In this document: one piece after another, positions 13,341 to 33,843 of the stretch
Layout of the letters: the number at the start of each line of letters is the position of its first letter
Position numbering within the stretch: the stretch's first letter is position 1
Made by a program: the position numbers and the translations under genes
The notes under the pieces: generated by a model
What the model was told of the DNA's origin: nothing
Databases searched by the model: none
Seen by the model: only the letters and a program-made list of their open reading frames with translations
Origin: an uncultured Candidatus Saccharibacteria bacterium
GTDB lineage: Bacteria > Patescibacteriota > Minisyncoccia > Phycocordibacterales > EsbW-18
DNA length: 57,318 nt
Direction of reading: 5' to 3'
Assembly: GCA_964608145.1 (NCBI GenBank)
Contig: CAZSMD010000001.1
Location: 1-57,318, forward strand

Positions 13341-14033
13341 CTAATGCCACCCTTTTGCCGTAAGTGCGTTCTGCGCGGCCTGCTGTTCGGCTTCCTGCTT
13401 GCTCTTCCCTTCCCCTTCGGCGATTTTTTCTTCGTCGACGAAAACACCGATTGTAAAATGTTTGTCGTGGTCCGGTCCCTCCTCGCGGAGTGATTTATAG
13501 AGCGGCGTGTGTCCTTCTTTTTCCTGCGCAACCTCCTGGAAACGGCTTTTTGCGTCACGCCAGAGGTGTTTTTCAACAATGTCATCGGTCAGCGGCAGCA
13601 CGTTGTCCTCAATAAAATCTTTTGCGGCGTCGTATCCCTGATCAAGATACAGTGCGCCGACAAGCGCTTCAAACGCGTTCGCGAGAATGAACTGACGCGC
13701 CCGGCCGGTATCACGCGCTTCACCCTTTGAAAGCAACAGATAGTCATTCATGCCGAGTCCCATTGCAACCGTTGCAAGTGTTGATGCGTTCACCAGTCCT
13801 GCGCGGTAGGAGGTCAAATCCCCTTCCGTGCGATCAGGATATTTTCCAAACAAAAAATCCGTCGTGATGAGTTCAAGAACCGCATCACCTAAAAACTCCA
13901 GCCGCTCGTTGTGCTGCCGTTTGCCGCTCCGGTGCTCATTCACAAATGAGCGGTGCGTAAAAGCGACTTCAAGCAGACGCTTGTCCTTGAAGGTGATTCC
14001 TATGCGTTCTTCAAATTCTTTAAAATCTTTCAT
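13341..14033 (-). CDS. rnc: ribonuclease III
   Basis: FTHRSFVNEH...NERLEFLGDAVLE catalytic signature plus a C-terminal dsRBD. Confidence 0.95.
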   Translation of the reverse strand: MKDFKEFEERIGITFKDKRLLEVAFTHRSFVNEHRSGKRQHNERLEFLGDAVLELITTDFLFGKYPDRTEGDLTSYRAGLVNASTLATVAMGLGMNDYLLLSKGEARDTGRARQFILANAFEALVGALYLDQGYDAAKDFIEDNVLPLTDDIVEKHLWRDAKSRFQEVAQEKEGHTPLYKSLREEGPDHDKHFTIGVFVDEEKIAEGEGKSKQEAEQQAAQNALTAKGWH

Positions 14034-28768: not shown

Positions 28769-28801
28769 GCGGCGGTCGAGTTGCTCGACCGCCGCGTTTT
28801 T
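28769..28801 (+). terminator. strong intrinsic terminator after P3
   Basis: GCGGCGGTCGAG TTG CTCGACCGCCGC followed by GTTTTT. Confidence 0.8.
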
Positions 28802-28848
28802 GCGCCTTGTGTTTTTACCTCTCACTTCACGATTTACTCTCCTCATTT

Positions 28849-30135
28849 TTACCTCTCCTTCCACGCTTTTCCCTGCCGAACCAGGAGTTTTTCCTTCTTT
28901 TCGGGTTCCGCCATGACATGTTCAACGACATGCTCGAGACGAACACCTTGCGAACCCTTTACAAGCACCACATCACCTTCCGCGACAACATTTGCGAGAT
29001 ATGCCCCCGCTTGGTGCGCATTGCTATAGAGCGATACATTTGAGAGCCCGTGCTGCTGTGCACTTTTCGCTGTCTCTTGAACAGAGGAACCGACACAGAC
29101 AAGCATACTCACTGTTTTTGCGGCCTGCTCACCCAAAAATGCATGCGCCTCTGACGAATGTTTGCCGAGTTCCCGCATATCTCCGAGAACGGCGATTTTC
29201 CTTCCCTGTGTCGAAATCTCACTCAGCGTTTCAAGAGCGTGTTCCGCGGCAATTGGGGACGCATTATACGAATCATCAATAATCACGCTGCCCTTTTTCC
29301 CGGGAACAAGGTGCATACGCCCGGGCGGTGTTTTAAACGTACTTAGCGCCTCGGTCATCTCCACGACACTAATCCCCTGTGAAAGCCCTACGGAAAGCGC
29401 GGCAAGCACGGGGTACATGATGTGCCGTCCGAGTACATCGTGAAGACGTATCGGCACAACATTTCCTTCAAACATCACTTTGAAACTTACTCCCTCAGGG
29501 CGTCCTGCCTCGTCATATTCAATCGCATAGTAGTCGGCATACAGGTCCGCATCCTGGTTATAACCAAACGTATAGACGCGATTTTTTATGCTGCCCGACA
29601 GTTCGCGCACTTTTTCATCGTCATAGCCGAGAAGAGCGACGCCGTTTGGTTTGAGCGCCTTGAGAATCATGCTTTTTTCAACAAAAACCGCATGCGGGGA
29701 AGAAAAAAATTCAACGTGCACCGGTGTCTCGGCGACAAGCGTAATCACCGCGGCGTCAAGCCGTACCCACCGTACAAGCCGTTCCATGTCACCCGGATGA
29801 TCAACGCCCATTTCAAGCACGACCCAGTCGGGATAACTGTGGAAACCGAAAGCAACCCAAAAACCTCGCAGGATATTCATCAGCCATCCACCCGGGCTAT
29901 CCCACGCGGTGTCGAGTCCTAAGATGGTCAGCGGAACGCCCAAATCCGAATTAAAACTTTTATCGCTCTTCGCAACAGTAAACAGAGAACCGAAGATGGT
30001 CGCAATGGCGTCCTTCGTTGTCGTTTTTCCAACGCTTCCGGTGACTCCGATGACACGCGGTTTAAAACGCCACAACACTACCCGCGCCTCAAACGTGAGC
30101 ATTGCAACAACAATTTTTTTAAGAAACGATTTCAT
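28849..30135 (-). CDS. murF: UDP-N-acetylmuramoyl-tripeptide--D-alanyl-D-alanine ligase
   Basis: VIGVTGSVGKTTTKD P-loop with Mur ligase middle and C-terminal domains. Sits in the dcw cluster. Confidence 0.92.
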   Translation of the reverse strand: MKSFLKKIVVAMLTFEARVVLWRFKPRVIGVTGSVGKTTTKDAIATIFGSLFTVAKSDKSFNSDLGVPLTILGLDTAWDSPGGWLMNILRGFWVAFGFHSYPDWVVLEMGVDHPGDMERLVRWVRLDAAVITLVAETPVHVEFFSSPHAVFVEKSMILKALKPNGVALLGYDDEKVRELSGSIKNRVYTFGYNQDADLYADYYAIEYDEAGRPEGVSFKVMFEGNVVPIRLHDVLGRHIMYPVLAALSVGLSQGISVVEMTEALSTFKTPPGRMHLVPGKKGSVIIDDSYNASPIAAEHALETLSEISTQGRKIAVLGDMRELGKHSSEAHAFLGEQAAKTVSMLVCVGSSVQETAKSAQQHGLSNVSLYSNAHQAGAYLANVVAEGDVVLVKGSQGVRLEHVVEHVMAEPEKKEKLLVRQGKAWKER

Positions 30136-30170
30136 TCTGTTTTTCTTCTCTCCTCTTCTGTATTTTCCAC

Positions 30171-30204
30171 TTTACAACTTTATAACTTTACAAACTTTAT
30201 AACT
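30171..30204. repeat. left arm of a 34-nt inverted repeat pair bracketing ftsL-ftsI
   Basis: TTTACAACTTTATAACTTTACAAACTTTATAACT. Its reverse complement matches 32252-32285 at 33 of 34 positions (28 consecutive identities). Confidence 0.9.
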
Positions 30205-30205
30205 G

Positions 30206-31918
30206 TCATCGGTCCGGCGGAATTTCGTAATAGTTAATGAGAAACTCGGTAAGCTCCATAAAAGGATGCGTCAGTGTCTGCGACGCAAATTCTACGTTCT
30301 TCGGCTCCTCGTTATACAGGAAAATAATGAACTTCGGATCGTATGCGGGAAAATAGCCGAAGAACGAGTGGAGATACCTGTCATCATAATACCCTTTTCC
30401 TGCCTTATTGGATATCTGAGCGGTACCGGTTTTTGCGGCAACGCTATAGCGTTCAAGCTTCACTGTTCCGCCAAGAAGGAATTCGTCTACGACTTTGACG
30501 AGCATTTTGGTAATTGTTTCGCTCGCTTCTTCGGAGAGTACGCGTTCGTTTGACGCAAAGGTTTTTGTTTTCGTAATACCGAGATCGTATTCAATCTCTT
30601 TCACCAGATGCGGGTCAACAAGCATGCCGCCGTTTGCAAGCACGGCGAGCGCGCGAATCATCTCAATCGGCGTCACGGCAATTCCCTGTCCGTACGATGC
30701 AGTCGCATATTCAATGTCACGGGGGCTGTCCAAAGGATCCAGGAGACCGGCAATTTCACCCGGCAAGTCAATGCCGGTTTCGCGGCCAAGCCCGAATGCC
30801 CGCAGGTAGTCGGCAAAACGCTTGTTGCCGAGCTCGCCGACAACAAACGCAACGCCCGTGTTGAGCGACTCGCCAAGCACGTTGTACATAGGCACAACGC
30901 CGCGCCCGCGCCCGTCATAGTTCGAAATGGTGCGCCCGTCAAGCGTGAGAGAGCCGGTATCGTTATAGGTCGTTTCGGGTGTGACCACACGGGCATCGAG
31001 TCCCGCGGCCATCGTCAGCGGCTTCATGATAGAACCCATCTCATACACGTTTTCAACAAGGGGGTTTTTGAACACACCGAGATTCTCCACAGAAGCGAAG
31101 TTGTTCGGATCAAACGTCGGGTACGCAGCCATCGCAATAATTTCTCCCGTCGCCGGATTCATGATGATGCCGCCGACTGATTTGGACGACCATTCTTCAG
31201 CAATCTGTGCGAGCGTCTGTTCGAGTACGCCCTCGACGGTCGGCTCAATTGTCGTCACGATGTCTCCCGCTCCTTCTCCCTCTTCAATCTCTGCAACTTC
31301 ATTAAGACTTCCGAATATCTCGGCGAAGAAATTCACATGCATGTTCTGCGCATTTCGTGAAAGCGTTCGTTCGTAGTACCGTTCGAGACCGTATTGTCCG
31401 ACAAGTTCATTGCCGTTAAAACCGACAAAGCCGAGCGCGTGCGCCGCGCGCTCCCCGCCCGGATAAAAACGCCATCGCTCCTTTTCAAGTTCAACGCCCG
31501 GTATGCCGAGCGCGGAAATCGCGTCTGCAGTTTCAGTTGAAAGTTTTTGCGCCAGCTCTTCATGCGGGTCGTCGCTTTTTTCCGCTTTTTTGAAAAAATC
31601 TTCCCGGTCAAGTTCGACGAGCGGTGAAAGCGCCTCGTACGCGGCTTCCGCGTCAATCAGCTTCTTCGGGTTAAGTACGAGTGTAAAACCCGGTTCAAGA
31701 GTTGCGGCAGAAATGCGCCGTCCCGCTTTGTCCTCAAAAAAAATAGCCCCGCGGTCGAACAACGCCCCTTGAGGCGTGACGTACTGCCGGTCTGCTTTTA
31801 CTGCGTACTCTTCATTTCTGACAATCTGCTCAAGGTACAGTTTGCCCACAAGTATGAGGGCAAAAATAAAAAGCACCCCGAACAAAATCCTGATTCGGTT
31901 GGTGCTTGGATCACTCAT
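30206..31918 (-). CDS. ftsI: penicillin-binding protein (FtsI/PBP3-type transpeptidase)
   Basis: N-terminal TM, PBP dimerisation domain, transpeptidase motifs (GSIMKP, SNT-like, KTGTA). Start trimmed to MSDPSTNRIRILFG, overlapping the ftsL stop. Confidence 0.9.
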   Translation of the reverse strand: MSDPSTNRIRILFGVLFIFALILVGKLYLEQIVRNEEYAVKADRQYVTPQGALFDRGAIFFEDKAGRRISAATLEPGFTLVLNPKKLIDAEAAYEALSPLVELDREDFFKKAEKSDDPHEELAQKLSTETADAISALGIPGVELEKERWRFYPGGERAAHALGFVGFNGNELVGQYGLERYYERTLSRNAQNMHVNFFAEIFGSLNEVAEIEEGEGAGDIVTTIEPTVEGVLEQTLAQIAEEWSSKSVGGIIMNPATGEIIAMAAYPTFDPNNFASVENLGVFKNPLVENVYEMGSIMKPLTMAAGLDARVVTPETTYNDTGSLTLDGRTISNYDGRGRGVVPMYNVLGESLNTGVAFVVGELGNKRFADYLRAFGLGRETGIDLPGEIAGLLDPLDSPRDIEYATASYGQGIAVTPIEMIRALAVLANGGMLVDPHLVKEIEYDLGITKTKTFASNERVLSEEASETITKMLVKVVDEFLLGGTVKLERYSVAAKTGTAQISNKAGKGYYDDRYLHSFFGYFPAYDPKFIIFLYNEEPKNVEFASQTLTHPFMELTEFLINYYEIPPDR

Positions 31919-32228
31919 TGCCGTAGCGGACAGAAAGCGGATGCGTATCGCGGGAAACAAATACCTTCGGTTTTTTCTCGATGAAACCAAGCTCAAGCGC
32001 GCGTCCGAGCGTTACCGCCTGAAGAGCCTCCATGTATGCGAGTTCGAGGACACTGACGTGCGCCGCCAAATCAACCGTTTCTGCCTCGATAGTCTCGCGC
32101 AACACCACATTAGCGACTGTTTTTCGCACCAAGGCACCGTAGGACACAACACACACGAGCAAAAGCGCCGAGAGCACGAGCAGTGCGCGTTTTTCAAAAC
32201 TGTTGAGTTGCAGGAGATCGCGGACCAT
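31911..32228 (-). CDS. ftsL: FtsL-like cell division protein
   Basis: Small bitopic protein: TM LLVLSALLLVCVVSYGAL then a coiled segment. Located between rsmH and ftsI. Confidence 0.7.
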   Translation of the reverse strand: MVRDLLQLNSFEKRALLVLSALLLVCVVSYGALVRKTVANVVLRETIEAETVDLAAHVSVLELAYMEALQAVTLGRALELGFIEKKPKVFVSRDTHPLSVRYGNE

Positions 32229-32251
32229 AGGGCAGTTATTAAAAGTTAGAA

Positions 32252-32285
32252 AGTTATAAAGTTTGTAAAGTTATAAAGTCGTAAA
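32252..32285. repeat. right arm of the 34-nt inverted repeat pair
   Basis: AGTTATAAAGTTTGTAAAGTTATAAAGTCGTAAA, lying between the rsmH stop and the ftsL start. Confidence 0.9.
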
Positions 32286-32288
32286 ATG

Positions 32289-33182
32289 TTATGAAGTCTT
32301 TTCGAGGATACGAAGCTTTGCAGAGCGCGCCCGTGGATTTACACGTTCTTCCTCATCGGTCGGAACAATCGGTTTTTTTGTGAGCACAACAGCCCCGTCT
32401 TCGTCCGACCGCGCTTTGAAGTACTGCTTCACGATGCGGTCTTCAAGACTGTGGAATGACACCACAACAAGCCGGCCTCCGGGAGCGAGCGCCGCATATG
32501 CTTTTGCAAGACCTTCCGTGAGTGCGTTCAGCTCATCGTTGACCGCAATGCGGAGCGCCTGGAATGTTCGCGTCGCCGGATGAATCGCACCGTGGTTGTA
32601 ACGCACCGGCACTGCTTTCCTAATACAGTCGACGAGCGCCATGGTCGAGAGAATCGGCGACTTCGTACGCGTCGCGACGATTTCCTTTGCAATCCGCCGC
32701 GCATATCGCTCCTCGCCGTATCCGAAAATCACGTTCGCGATGTCTTCCTCCTTCCACGTGTTCACAATGTCTGCCGCAGTGAACGCCGCGCTTTCCGCAA
32801 CGCTGGCAAATGTCATGTGCAGAGGTTCATCGCGCAGGAAACTGAATCCGCGGCCGGACGACTCAAGCTGCAGCGAGCTCATGCCGAGGTCAAACGTCGC
32901 TCCGTCAATTGCCGCGACACCCAAAGATTCGAGCACCGTATCAAGATTTCGAAAATCTTCCTCCACCAGATGCAGTGTTGCCGGCACGTGCGAGAGACGT
33001 TCGCGCACGTCGTTTAACGTTCCCGCGTCCCGGTCAAGACCGATAACGGTTCCGCTTTTCCCGACGCGCTCACAGAGCGCTTTCGTGTACCCACCTCCGC
33101 CGACCGTCGCATCAAGGATGGTCATGCCGGGAACGGCGCGTACTCCTTCTATGACTTCATGTAAAAGAACAGGAATGTGCAT
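32289..33182 (-). CDS. rsmH: 16S rRNA (cytosine1402-N4)-methyltransferase
   Basis: MHIPVLLHEVIEG...ILDATVGGGGYT...SFHSLEDRIVK. Confidence 0.95.
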   Translation of the reverse strand: MHIPVLLHEVIEGVRAVPGMTILDATVGGGGYTKALCERVGKSGTVIGLDRDAGTLNDVRERLSHVPATLHLVEEDFRNLDTVLESLGVAAIDGATFDLGMSSLQLESSGRGFSFLRDEPLHMTFASVAESAAFTAADIVNTWKEEDIANVIFGYGEERYARRIAKEIVATRTKSPILSTMALVDCIRKAVPVRYNHGAIHPATRTFQALRIAVNDELNALTEGLAKAYAALAPGGRLVVVSFHSLEDRIVKQYFKARSDEDGAVVLTKKPIVPTDEEERVNPRARSAKLRILEKTS

Positions 33183-33276: not shown

Positions 33277-33711
33277 CTAGACTGCACCAATCTCGCCCAA
33301 ACGCTCCGCAAGCATATCGGCCTCTTTTTCGATGCGTCGCGTGTACGCGTCCCACGCCTTGTCGTTCCATACTTCCACTCGTGTCTGCACTCCCGCGAAG
33401 ATCACTTTATTTTTGAGCCCCGCGAAATTCTTAAGGAAGTCCGGAATGAGAATGCGCCCAGACGCGTCCACCTCTACCTCTGCCGCGCCTGCGAGCATGA
33501 AGCGCGTAAAGCCGCGCATGCTTGCCTGACCCATGCCAAGTTCGCCCAAACGTTTTGAAATTGCGTTCCACTCTTTCTGCGAGTACACAAAAAGACACCC
33601 TTCGAGTCCGCGCGTGACAACGAGCTTTTTACCGAGCTCGGAACGGAAACGAACCGGAAGCGAGAGCCGCTTCTTTTCGTCCAATGTATGTGTGTACTCG
33701 CCGATTAACAT
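33277..33711 (-). CDS. mraZ: division/cell wall cluster transcriptional regulator MraZ
   Basis: MLIGEYTHTLDEKKRLSLPVRFR...GRILIP with duplicated SpoVT-AbrB motifs. Confidence 0.95.
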   Translation of the reverse strand: MLIGEYTHTLDEKKRLSLPVRFRSELGKKLVVTRGLEGCLFVYSQKEWNAISKRLGELGMGQASMRGFTRFMLAGAAEVEVDASGRILIPDFLKNFAGLKNKVIFAGVQTRVEVWNDKAWDAYTRRIEKEADMLAERLGEIGAV

Positions 33712-33813
33712 GTTTTACGTAAGTACCACTTTATCCCACTTGGATATTATTCTATACCACCCTGCCCCACATACAAACATAGTTATCCACTTTCTGAACC
33801 TCCAGTACACAAC

Positions 33814-33843
33814 AAAAAACTGCCCCGTAAAGGGCAGTTTTTG
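33814..33843. terminator. bidirectional hairpin terminator downstream of lysS
   Basis: AAAAAACTGCCC CGTAAA GGGCAGTTTTT. Confidence 0.65.

What the first reader, a model, noticed from the sequence alone, without database searches (positions are those of the whole stretch)
30171..32285. 34-nt inverted repeats 2 kb apart bracket exactly ftsL-ftsI; the only difference is a G-U wobble in the sense transcript
The left arm is TTTACAACTTTATAACTTTACAAACTTTATAACT (30171-30204, abutting the ftsI stop). The right arm is AGTTATAAAGTTTGTAAAGTTATAAAGTCGTAAA (32252-32285, between the rsmH stop and the ftsL start). The two arms are reverse complements at 33 of 34 positions, with 28 consecutive identities. They are AT-rich islands in a GC-rich operon. 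In the minus-strand (sense) polycistronic mRNA the single mismatch becomes a U-G wobble. In an antisense transcript it would be A-C. All 34 positions can therefore pair only in the sense RNA. A 34-bp duplex enclosing two cistrons resembles the RNase III processing stems that flank 16S and 23S rRNA. RNase III is encoded in this window. Such a stem could excise or stabilise an ftsL-ftsI sub-transcript, or couple its expression to folding.
Basis: partly seen in the sequence, partly recalled or inferred. Interest (0 to 1): 0.7.

Follow-up and report, generated by a model that had tools for sequence, protein, structure and literature searches.

The report
Inverted octamer arrays flanking ftsL-ftsI
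Two 37-40-nt copies of a fast-evolving A/T-rich tandem-octamer array sit in opposite orientation on either side of the cell-division genes ftsL-ftsI of an uncultured Parcubacterium; they could zip the operon mRNA into a long double-stranded stem, but a 99.5%-identical strain lacks one copy, so this looks like a young, dispensable structure rather than a conserved processing signal.

Summary
Arms 30168-30207 and 32249-32288 are 37/40 complementary. They are the only strong inverted repeat in the 57-kb window and bracket exactly ftsL-ftsI in a lysS-mraZ-rsmH-ftsL-ftsI-murF operon of a Patescibacterium. In silico the 2.2-kb sense RNA closes into a 37-bp stem (about -48 kcal/mol, pair probabilities about 0.99). 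RNase III is encoded at 13341-14033.

The arms are not a private pair. Each is a tandem array of 8/9-nt units (CTTTAYAA). Its 26-nt core occurs verbatim in 10 unrelated Bacteroidota, Ignavibacteria and Patescibacteria loci. Similar arrays with other unit sequences fill operon spacers across Parcubacteria.

The pair is not conserved. A strain with 9 differences in 2004 nt of ftsL-ftsI keeps a variant 5' array but has only 3 nt between ftsI and murF. Species-level relatives (75-77% FtsI identity) lack complementarity. A 67%-identity clade has a different array family that is also complementary at these junctions.

Best reading: a strain-level, recently made inverted copy of a hypervariable leader array. 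It would form an RNase III-type duplex if both arms are co-transcribed, but it is not a conserved processing element.

The parts
32249..32288 (-). 5' arm (F2). In the sense RNA it reads CAUUUUACGA CUUUAUAA CUUUACAAA CUUUAUAA CU. It is a G-poor tandem 8/9-nt array in the rsmH-ftsL spacer. The array continues in degenerate units to 32232, and the duplex ends 24 nt before the ftsL ATG.
30168..30207 (-). 3' arm (R2). It is the reverse-complement array (AGUUAUAAAGUUUGUAAAGUUAUAAAGUUGUAAAGUG) and starts 1-2 nt after the ftsI stop codon. It is absent from the near-identical strain L212/L213.
31911..32228 (-). FtsL-like ORF of 105 aa with an N-terminal TM helix. It has no family match and is assigned by conserved position. 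No Shine-Dalgarno sequence precedes it in this window or in the 12 close relatives whose rsmH-ftsL spacer was read; all of those leaders are G-poor.
30206..31960 (-). ftsI-type class B penicillin-binding protein (PBP_dimer + Transpeptidase).
32289..33182 (-). rsmH. Its last codons plus stop (GACTTCATAA) already resemble the array unit.
30136..30167 (-). murF leader left outside the duplex. It carries the GAGGAG Shine-Dalgarno sequence (30150-30155) and is homologous to the 3' part of the L121 spacer (AATACAGAA).
28849..30135 (-). murF.
33277..33711 (-). mraZ, the first gene of the cluster.
33724..33792 (-). GTGG(G) boxes, two pairs at 10-nt spacing, upstream of mraZ. This is the expected MraZ operator/promoter region and is unrelated in sequence to the arms.
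   Evidence: the interpretation rests on established knowledge of MraZ operators
13341..14033 (-). rnc (RNase III: Ribonuclease_3 + dsrm domains, ERLEFLGD motif). It is the enzyme that would cut such a duplex.

Best explanation
The two arms are inverted copies of one hypervariable tandem-repeat array with 8/9-nt units CTTTAYAA. This is a type of short intergenic array that is widespread in Patescibacteria and FCB-group genomes.

The 5' copy is the older one. It fills the rsmH-ftsL spacer, starts at the rsmH stop codon, and forms the G-poor leader of ftsL, which has no Shine-Dalgarno sequence. The 3' copy is a recent inverted copy lodged 1-2 nt after the ftsI stop codon. It is present in this strain and absent in a 99.5%-identical one.

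One arm has almost no G and the other almost no C. Neither can fold on itself, so in a transcript that carries both they should pair into a 37-bp A-U-rich duplex. That duplex would loop out ftsL-ftsI and be a good RNase III substrate.

Shown: the anatomy, the array nature, the dispersal of the motif, the strain-level presence/absence, and the thermodynamic potential. Inferred: the direction of copying, co-transcription of both arms, duplex formation in vivo, and cleavage. I judge the pair to be a young structural polymorphism that is at most mildly regulatory, not a conserved processing signal.
For: - Array nature: TRF period 8 and 17 at both arms.
- Dispersed motif: more than 119 genome loci match three consecutive units. 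The exact 26-mer is in 10 unrelated loci from three phyla, nearly always intergenic and next to housekeeping genes.
- Partner copies within 8 kb in those genomes are direct (20) about as often as inverted (18).
- Hypervariability: against strain L212, the ftsL-ftsI CDS differs at 9/2004 nt and the rsmH end at 0/173, but the 5' array differs at 7 substitutions plus 4 gaps in 63 columns.
- Strain-level absence of the 3' arm: the L212/L213 ftsI-murF spacer is TAA-CCT-ATG.
- No complementarity in L121, L122, L125, L123, L124, L209 or L211.
- Only 2 of 59 rsmH|ftsL x ftsI|murF spacer pairs (84 distinct Parcubacteria loci in all) show a strong complement.
- The 3' arm matches this strain's 5' arm (2 mismatches in the 37 nt) better than L212's 5' array appears to (about 4-5 differences by eye in the alignment, not formally counted). 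This argues for recent copying or conversion.
- The rest of the ftsI-murF spacer is homologous to L121's, so the arm looks like an added or replaced block.
- Pairing potential: duplex -48.6 kcal/mol, z = -8.8. The stem is in the MFE of the 2.2-kb RNA with probability about 0.99.
- RNase III is present.
Against: - A different array family (CTAAYNAAG) is complementary at the same two junctions in L127 (19 nt perfect, -37.8 kcal/mol) and L210.
- L128 has a 58-nt inverted repeat (24 nt perfect) flanking rsmH...murF. Recurrence of gene-bracketing complementary arrays hints at selection for pairing, or at a directed copying mechanism that I cannot name.
- Both transition mismatches in the window are G.U in the sense strand.
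- Across phyla the arrays obey a polarity rule relative to stop codons (MWU p = 1e-4). A purely neutral process does not obviously predict this.
- The L212 spacer may be a secondary deletion or a recombination import: the first 100 nt of murF are 24% diverged. Its lack of the arm shows dispensability, not the ancestral state.
- The rest of the source genome could not be scanned.
Confidence: 0.5

Rival explanations
1. A selected long-range processing or stability stem. The duplex is maintained because RNase III cuts it, releasing an ftsL-ftsI sub-transcript with base-paired, exonuclease-protected ends, as happens for 16S and 23S rRNA.
For: - The duplex is 37 bp and positioned exactly between ORFs and ribosome-binding sites.
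- RNase III is encoded in the window.
- Two G.U pairs occur in the sense strand.
- Complementary arrays of another sequence sit at the same junctions in L127 and L210, and there is an outer bracket in L128.
- Local hairpins whose arms are tandem repeats are common in the operon spacers of other Parcubacteria: L193 (58-nt arms, 91%), L140, L156, L165.
Against: - The 3' arm is absent in a 99.5%-identical strain and in all 75-77% relatives.
- L128 changed its 5' array without compensation in the 3' array (-21.9 kcal/mol), and that 3' array pairs better with other arrays.
- The antisense duplex is more stable than the sense one in L127 and L128.
- In that clade all arrays belong to one family, so complementarity follows from orientation alone.
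Confidence: 0.2
2. Translational control. The 3' arm closes the unstructured standby region upstream of ftsL once ftsI has been transcribed. This would limit FtsL/FtsI synthesis, or ribosomes terminating at the ftsI stop would reopen the region and so couple ftsL initiation to ftsI termination.
For: - ftsL has no Shine-Dalgarno sequence and a G-poor leader in every close relative examined.
- The 3' arm begins 1-2 nt after the ftsI stop codon, within reach of a terminating ribosome.
- Long-range mRNA pairing that affects initiation or decay is documented in B. subtilis (PMC5737220; PMC12697547).
Against: - The duplex ends 24 nt upstream of the ATG, so the start codon and the -20 region stay free.
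- The dispensability and non-conservation arguments above apply here too.
Confidence: 0.1
3. DNA-level function. The arrays are oriented multi-site binding platforms for a protein (a regulator, nucleoid protein or polar roadblock), placed facing the gene block from both sides.
For: - The repeats are regular and tandem.
- The same 26-mer appears in three phyla.
- There is orientation polarity relative to gene ends.
Against: - The 8/9-nt period is out of phase with the DNA helix.
- Unit sequences differ completely between related genomes (CTTTAYAA, CTAAYNAAG, AAGATAC, TTCCAAC, CAATTTT...), which would need many specificities.
- There is no sigma70-like promoter in the arms, and the MraZ boxes are different.
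Confidence: 0.07
4. A recombination substrate or mobile cassette: an invertible segment or composite element bounded by terminal inverted repeats.
For: Inverted repeats of 37-40 nt flank a 2-kb segment.
Against: - The rsmH-ftsL-ftsI-murF order and orientation are conserved in all ~90 related loci, including same-strain contig L120 and L212/L213.
- Genes next to arrays elsewhere are housekeeping genes, not transposases.
- The 26-mer has 0 hits in viral contigs.
- Inverting essential division genes would disconnect them from their promoter.
Confidence: 0.03

Closest known systems
RNase III processing stems that flank 16S and 23S rRNA in primary rRNA transcripts (my own knowledge)
   Same: Two complementary segments kilobases apart in one transcript enclose a functional unit. 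The duplex is long enough for RNase III, and the enzyme is encoded in the genome.
   Different: Those stems are conserved with compensatory changes across phyla, and cleavage has been shown. Here the pair encloses protein-coding cistrons, is missing in a near-identical strain, and no cleavage data exist.
5'/3'-UTR long-range pairing in bacterial mRNAs: B. subtilis hbs (14 bp, modulates RNase Y cleavage; PMC5737220), S. aureus icaR (my own knowledge), and long-range anti-SD/RBS folding (PMC12697547)
   Same: Intramolecular pairing between sequences upstream of a start codon and sequences hundreds to thousands of nt downstream.
   Different: Those interactions are short (8-14 bp) and overlap the SD sequence or a cleavage site. 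This one is 37 bp, avoids the ribosome-binding region, lies between cistrons of an operon, and is built from tandem repeats.
Dispersed intergenic repeats: REP/BIME (PMC2817692), Neisseria Correia elements, ERIC (the last two from my own knowledge)
   Same: Short repeats confined to intergenic or intercistronic DNA, found in both orientations. When transcribed they can form hairpins that are RNase targets or mRNA stabilisers.
   Different: REP units are individually palindromic and genome-specific. Here the units are non-palindromic 8/9-mers in head-to-tail arrays, pairing needs a second inverted array, and one unit type recurs across phyla.
Slippage-prone short tandem repeats (contingency-locus type), and intergenic tandem repeats of Borg elements (PMC9879509)
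   Same: Head-to-tail units, rapid unit gain and loss between close strains, and unit lengths not divisible by three in intergenic DNA.
   Different: Contingency repeats switch promoters or reading frames. Borg repeats are perfect and unique to each locus. Neither is described as coming in inverted, gene-bracketing pairs.

Membership tests
RNase III long-range processing stem (rRNA-type) | Two flanking segments form a duplex of at least ~20 bp in the primary transcript | tested here: met
   37 consecutive pairs, -48.6 kcal/mol. The stem is in the MFE of the 2.2-kb sense RNA with probability about 0.99. In silico only.
RNase III long-range processing stem (rRNA-type) | Complementarity conserved in relatives through compensatory change | tested here: not met
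   Absent in strain L212/L213 and in L121, L122, L125, L123 and L124. A different complementary array pair exists in L127 and L210, but L128 shows uncompensated change.
RNase III long-range processing stem (rRNA-type) | Both arms lie on one transcript | tested here: inconclusive
   The genes are co-directional and tightly spaced in conserved order. The consensus scan gives 5 minus-strand terminator-like sites between the arms (7 on both strands), not clearly above the shuffles (3.9 +/- 2.1). No expression data.
RNase III long-range processing stem (rRNA-type) | Staggered RNase III cleavage within the stem | not testable with these tools
   Only the presence of rnc is shown.
5'/3'-UTR regulatory pairing (hbs / icaR type) | The downstream segment pairs with the ribosome-binding site or an RNase site of the upstream leader | tested here: not met
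   The duplex ends 24 nt before the ftsL ATG and there is no SD sequence to mask. An effect on a standby site is not excluded.
REP/BIME- or MITE-like dispersed element | Many copies per genome in intergenic DNA | tested here: inconclusive
   Only 2 copies in this 57-kb contig. Several per 8 kb occur in other genomes (L074, L128). The rest of the source genome is unavailable.
REP/BIME- or MITE-like dispersed element | The unit is itself an imperfect palindrome, or the element has terminal inverted repeats plus a target-site duplication | tested here: not met
   The arrays are direct repeats with almost no G on one strand, so they cannot self-pair. No duplication flanks either arm.
Invertible DNA segment | Both orientations of the bracketed segment occur; a recombinase is nearby | tested here: not met
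   Only one orientation is seen in ~90 related loci and in same-strain contigs. The neighbouring genes are lysS, mraZ, rsmH, murF and typA.
MraZ operator repeats | Direct repeats of a GTGG(G)-type box at ~10-nt spacing upstream of mraZ | tested here: not met
   Such boxes exist at 33724-33792. The arms have a different unit, an 8/9-nt period and a different location.
Slippage-type hypervariable tandem repeat | Head-to-tail units whose number and sequence vary between very close strains | tested here: met
   TRF arrays. The array shows 17% change against 0.45% in the adjacent CDS between the window and L212.

The most novel reading that the evidence does not exclude
Tandem 7-10-nt arrays would be an undescribed class of intercistronic element in Patescibacteria, and for the CTTTAYAA type also in Bacteroidota and Ignavibacteria.

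- Arrays after stop codons would be the reverse complement of arrays before start codons.
- In the operon mRNA they would pair locally or over kilobases, in some cases nested, as in L128.
- The pairing would punctuate polycistronic transcripts for RNase III or set cistron-specific stability and translation.
- The window's ftsL-ftsI bracket would be one young instance of this system.
Probability: 0.15. Interest if true: 0.75.

Novelty: new variant of a known kind. Interest (0 to 1): 0.38.

Why it matters
If the duplex forms and is cut, it would be an mRNA counterpart of rRNA processing stems. It would sit in the most conserved cell-division operon of an ultra-small bacterium, and two natural strains (with and without the 3' arm) would serve as a ready-made experiment.

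More broadly, the survey shows that short tandem-repeat arrays are common in the intercistronic spacers of Parcubacteria. Their units are lineage-specific, they turn over fast, and they are often complementary to one another. I found no description of this in the literature searched. It bears on how streamlined genomes with few regulators tune expression within operons.

As it stands, the specific pair is best seen as a strain polymorphism, so its importance is moderate.

Tried and rejected
- Rfam at gathering thresholds finds only two tRNAs in the window and nothing at the arms.
- The sigma70-type promoter scan finds none in or near the arms. The Bacteroidetes -33/-7 and sigma70 hexamer geometries, checked by eye, do not fit the 8/9/17-nt periods.
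- The arms are not MraZ operators; the real GTGG boxes lie upstream of mraZ.
- I suspected a local tandem-repeat hairpin in the window's mraZ-rsmH spacer, but it folds no better than shuffles (z = 0.06).
- G.U versus A.C asymmetry as a test of RNA-level selection gave 43 versus 27 in local hairpins of operon spacers. The hairpins are homologous and not independent, so this is only suggestive. Sense versus antisense duplex energies disagree among the four genomes with arm pairs.
- Mobile-cassette idea: the flanking genes are housekeeping, the 26-mer is absent from viral contigs, and synteny is fixed.
- Assembly artefact: the arms differ at 3 positions and the 3' arm sits in unique sequence homologous to L121's spacer. 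An independent contig (L120) confirms the 5' arm, but the 3' arm has no independent confirmation.
- Formal covariation counting was not attempted. The arrays of different clades cannot be aligned because whole units turn over.
- Literature searches for the sequence itself and for intergenic repeats in Patescibacteria found nothing relevant.
The source genome's other contigs were therefore not retrieved and copy number per genome is unknown.
Full report
**1. What is there**

The window is a complete 57,318-nt NCBI contig of an uncultured Patescibacterium. The best FtsI matches are annotated as Patescibacteria: Parcubacteria/Paceibacterota group, with Kaiser-, Campbell- and Wolfebacteria.

- On the minus strand lie lysS, mraZ, rsmH, a 105-aa FtsL-like ORF, a class B PBP (ftsI) and murF.
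- The claimed arms are present as written.
- The repeat finder extends them to 40 nt at 93% complementarity, 30168-30207 against 32249-32288.
- The 29-mer has no other copy in the window and none is expected by chance.
- No other inverted repeat in the window comes close.
- The right arm lies between the rsmH stop and the ftsL start. The left arm starts 1-2 nt after the ftsI stop and ends 32 nt before the murF ATG, leaving murF's GAGGAG Shine-Dalgarno sequence outside.

**2.

- Each arm is a head-to-tail array of 8/9-nt units with a 17-nt super-period.
- In the sense RNA the upstream arm reads CUUUAYAA units and has almost no G. The downstream arm reads the complement and has almost no C.
- The upstream array continues in degenerate units up to the ftsL start. 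It begins at the rsmH stop codon, whose context GACTTCATAA already resembles a unit.
- ftsL has no Shine-Dalgarno sequence here or in any close relative. All of their leaders are G-poor.

**3. Pairing potential**

- RNAduplex gives -48.6 kcal/mol for the sense RNA (z = -8.8 against shuffles) and -40.3 kcal/mol for the antisense.
- Folding the whole 2.2-kb sense RNA puts 37 consecutive pairs of the long-range stem in the MFE, with pair probabilities about 0.99. Two transition mismatches are G.U in the sense strand.
- RNase III (Ribonuclease_3 + dsrm) is encoded at 13341-14033.

**4. The motif is not private**

Most were from Bacteroidota, Ignavibacteria and many Patescibacteria lineages.
- The exact 26-nt core CTTTATAACTTTACAAACTTTATAAC is in 10 unrelated loci. 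The full 34-mer is found only in a same-strain contig.
- The arrays are almost always intergenic and lie next to ordinary genes: S13, SecY, UvrD, ribonucleotide reductase, RNase E/G, topoisomerase I, aldolase and FBPase.
- A second copy within 8 kb is direct (20 cases) about as often as inverted (18 cases).
- In co-directional spacers there is a polarity. Arrays that read TTRTAAAG in the sense strand start a median 14 nt after the preceding stop codon. Arrays that read CTTTAYAA sit a median 67 nt after it, near the next start (Mann-Whitney p = 1e-4).
- The window's two arms obey this rule. I have no proven explanation for it.

**5. Relatives**

I recovered 13 close loci via FtsI (62-100% identity) and 80 more distant ones (48-60%). 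All keep mraZ-rsmH-(ftsL)-ftsI-murF.

- The species-level neighbours L121, L122 and L125 (75-77%) have partial CTTT-type units before ftsL. After ftsI they have unrelated sequence or GGGAAYA repeats. Their duplex energies are at background.
- A 66-68% clade (L127, L128, L209, L210) carries a different array family, CTAAYNAAG. In L127 it gives a 19-nt perfect complement at exactly the same two junctions (-37.8 kcal/mol, z = -8.1). L210 gives -28.1 kcal/mol.
- In L128 the strongest pair (58 nt at 79%, 24 nt perfect, -57.5 kcal/mol) flanks rsmH...murF instead. The ftsL-ftsI pair there has decayed to -21.9 kcal/mol without compensation.
- In that clade, arrays of the one family occupy most spacers, so complementarity follows from orientation alone.
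- The window arms do not cross-pair with that family.
- Of 59 rsmH|ftsL x ftsI|murF spacer pairs compared (84 distinct loci in all), only the window and L127 show a strong complement.
- Tandem 7-10-nt arrays with lineage-specific units are nevertheless common in these spacers. They often form local hairpins: L193 (58-nt arms, 91%), L140 (window-type units), L156 and L165.

**6. The decisive comparison**

Contigs L212 and L213 come from two other sequencing runs and encode an identical FtsI protein.

| Region (window vs L212) | Differences |
|---|---|
| ftsL-ftsI CDS | 9 in 2004 nt |
| last 173 nt of rsmH | 0 |
| upstream array | 7 substitutions + 4 gaps in 63 columns |
| ftsI-murF spacer | 3 nt in L212 (TAA-CCT-ATG) |
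| last 19 nt of ftsI | 5 |
| first 100 nt of murF | 24 |

- In L212 the rsmH stop codon is mutated, so RsmH runs 6 codons into the array.
- With a 3-nt ftsI-murF spacer, the downstream arm and the murF leader are both missing.
- The divergence at the end of ftsI and the start of murF suggests a recombination tract.
- The inverted pair is therefore a strain-level polymorphism. The upstream array persists and evolves fast without a partner.
- In the window the downstream arm matches the upstream arm (2 mismatches in 37 nt) better than the two strains' upstream arrays appear to match each other (about 4-5 differences by eye in the alignment, not formally counted). This points to recent copying or conversion.

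**7. Interpretation**

The best-supported account is a recent inverted copy of a hypervariable leader array. The pair can form an RNase III-grade duplex if both arms are co-transcribed. It is dispensable and not conserved, so a selected processing role is possible but not favoured (about 0.2). A translational role for the duplex is less likely still, because it stops 24 nt short of the start codon.

DNA-level protein binding, an inversion switch, a mobile cassette and assembly error are each disfavoured by specific tests.

The recurrence of gene-bracketing complementary arrays in a sister clade, and the cross-phylum polarity rule, remain unexplained. They keep open a more novel reading (about 0.15): such arrays are a general device for structuring operon mRNAs.

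**8. Comparison with known systems**

The feature would work like the rRNA processing stems and like the 5'/3'-UTR interactions described for hbs (PMC5737220). It would also resemble the long-range RBS pairing described in PMC12697547. It fails the conservation criterion for membership in the first group and the RBS-overlap criterion for the second. It shares intergenic dispersal with REP/BIME (PMC2817692), but its units are not palindromic.

Searches of the held literature found no description of these arrays.

Noticed in passing
L212/L213 (Logan SRR35931335, SRR35931338) vs window 29750-32480: A near-identical strain shows a sharply bounded divergent tract from the last 19 nt of ftsI through about 400 nt of murF (26%, 24%, then 4% divergence against 0.45% elsewhere). 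It also lacks the whole ftsI-murF spacer. This looks like a recombination import or a deletion. The rsmH stop codon is TAA in the window and TAC in L212, which extends RsmH by 6 residues into the repeat array.
   Followed up: partly
L128 2701-2758 and 7072-7129: A 58-nt inverted repeat (79% complementary, 24 nt perfect, -57.5 kcal/mol) made of 10-nt units CAACGAAGCT flanks rsmH-ftsL-ftsI-murF, 4.3 kb apart. It lies outside the weaker ftsL-ftsI pair, giving a nested arrangement.
   Followed up: partly
L001-L119 (genome-contig hits), e.g. L006, L013, L019, L028, L043, L050, L077, L096, L103, L113: The exact 26-mer CTTTATAACTTTACAAACTTTATAAC recurs in unrelated Ignavibacteria, Bacteroidales, Saccharibacteria, Zambryski-, Yanofsky- and Peribacteria genomes. 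Arrays reading TTRTAAAG in the sense strand abut stop codons (median 14 nt), while CTTTAYAA-reading arrays sit near starts (p = 1e-4). The cause is unknown.
   Followed up: partly
L074 3680-5500 (chromosome OW818676.1): Every spacer of an operon of glycosyltransferase- and glycoside-hydrolase-like genes (judged by eye, not family-tested) carries CTTTACAA-type arrays, in both orientations. They include three ~62-nt direct modules and an inward-pointing pair that brackets one of these genes, as in the window.
   Followed up: partly
L017, L025, L039, L040, L048, L061, L071, L079 (Ignavibacteriaceae and Bacteroidetes MAG contigs): Many contigs begin or end in these arrays, some with a 27-nt period. 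The arrays therefore appear to break assemblies and are probably high-copy in those genomes.
   Followed up: no
mraZ-rsmH spacers of L157, L174, L182, L189, L201, L202, L204, L205, L207: A recurring hairpin has a 5' arm containing GCTGGAGGA(T), and its mismatches are mostly G.U in the sense strand. This may be a conserved structured element upstream of rsmH in many Parcubacteria. It is not present in the window.
   Followed up: no
L193 3302-3438: A local hairpin between ftsI and murF has 58-nt arms (91% complementary) built from AAGATAC heptamer repeats. It is the clearest example of a hairpin whose arms are tandem repeats.
   Followed up: no
window 33724-33792 and 33811-33840 (minus strand): GTGG(G) boxes in two pairs at 10-nt spacing lie upstream of mraZ and are the likely MraZ operator. 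They are preceded by a terminator-like hairpin with a T-run (AAACTGCCCTTTACGGGGCAGTTTTTTG) after lysS, so the dcw transcript probably starts here.
   Followed up: no
window 28769-28860 (minus strand): A 16/17-nt direct repeat (GAGAGGTAAAAA...) overlaps the murF stop codon. A perfect 12-bp GC-rich hairpin (GCGGCGGTCGAG-CAA-CTCGACCGCCGC) follows it without a T-run.
   Followed up: no
L121 7720-7747, L125 4622-4642: In the closest species-level relatives the position just after the ftsI stop is occupied by GGGAAYA heptamer repeats instead of the window's array. No complementary partner was found in those loci.
   Followed up: yes
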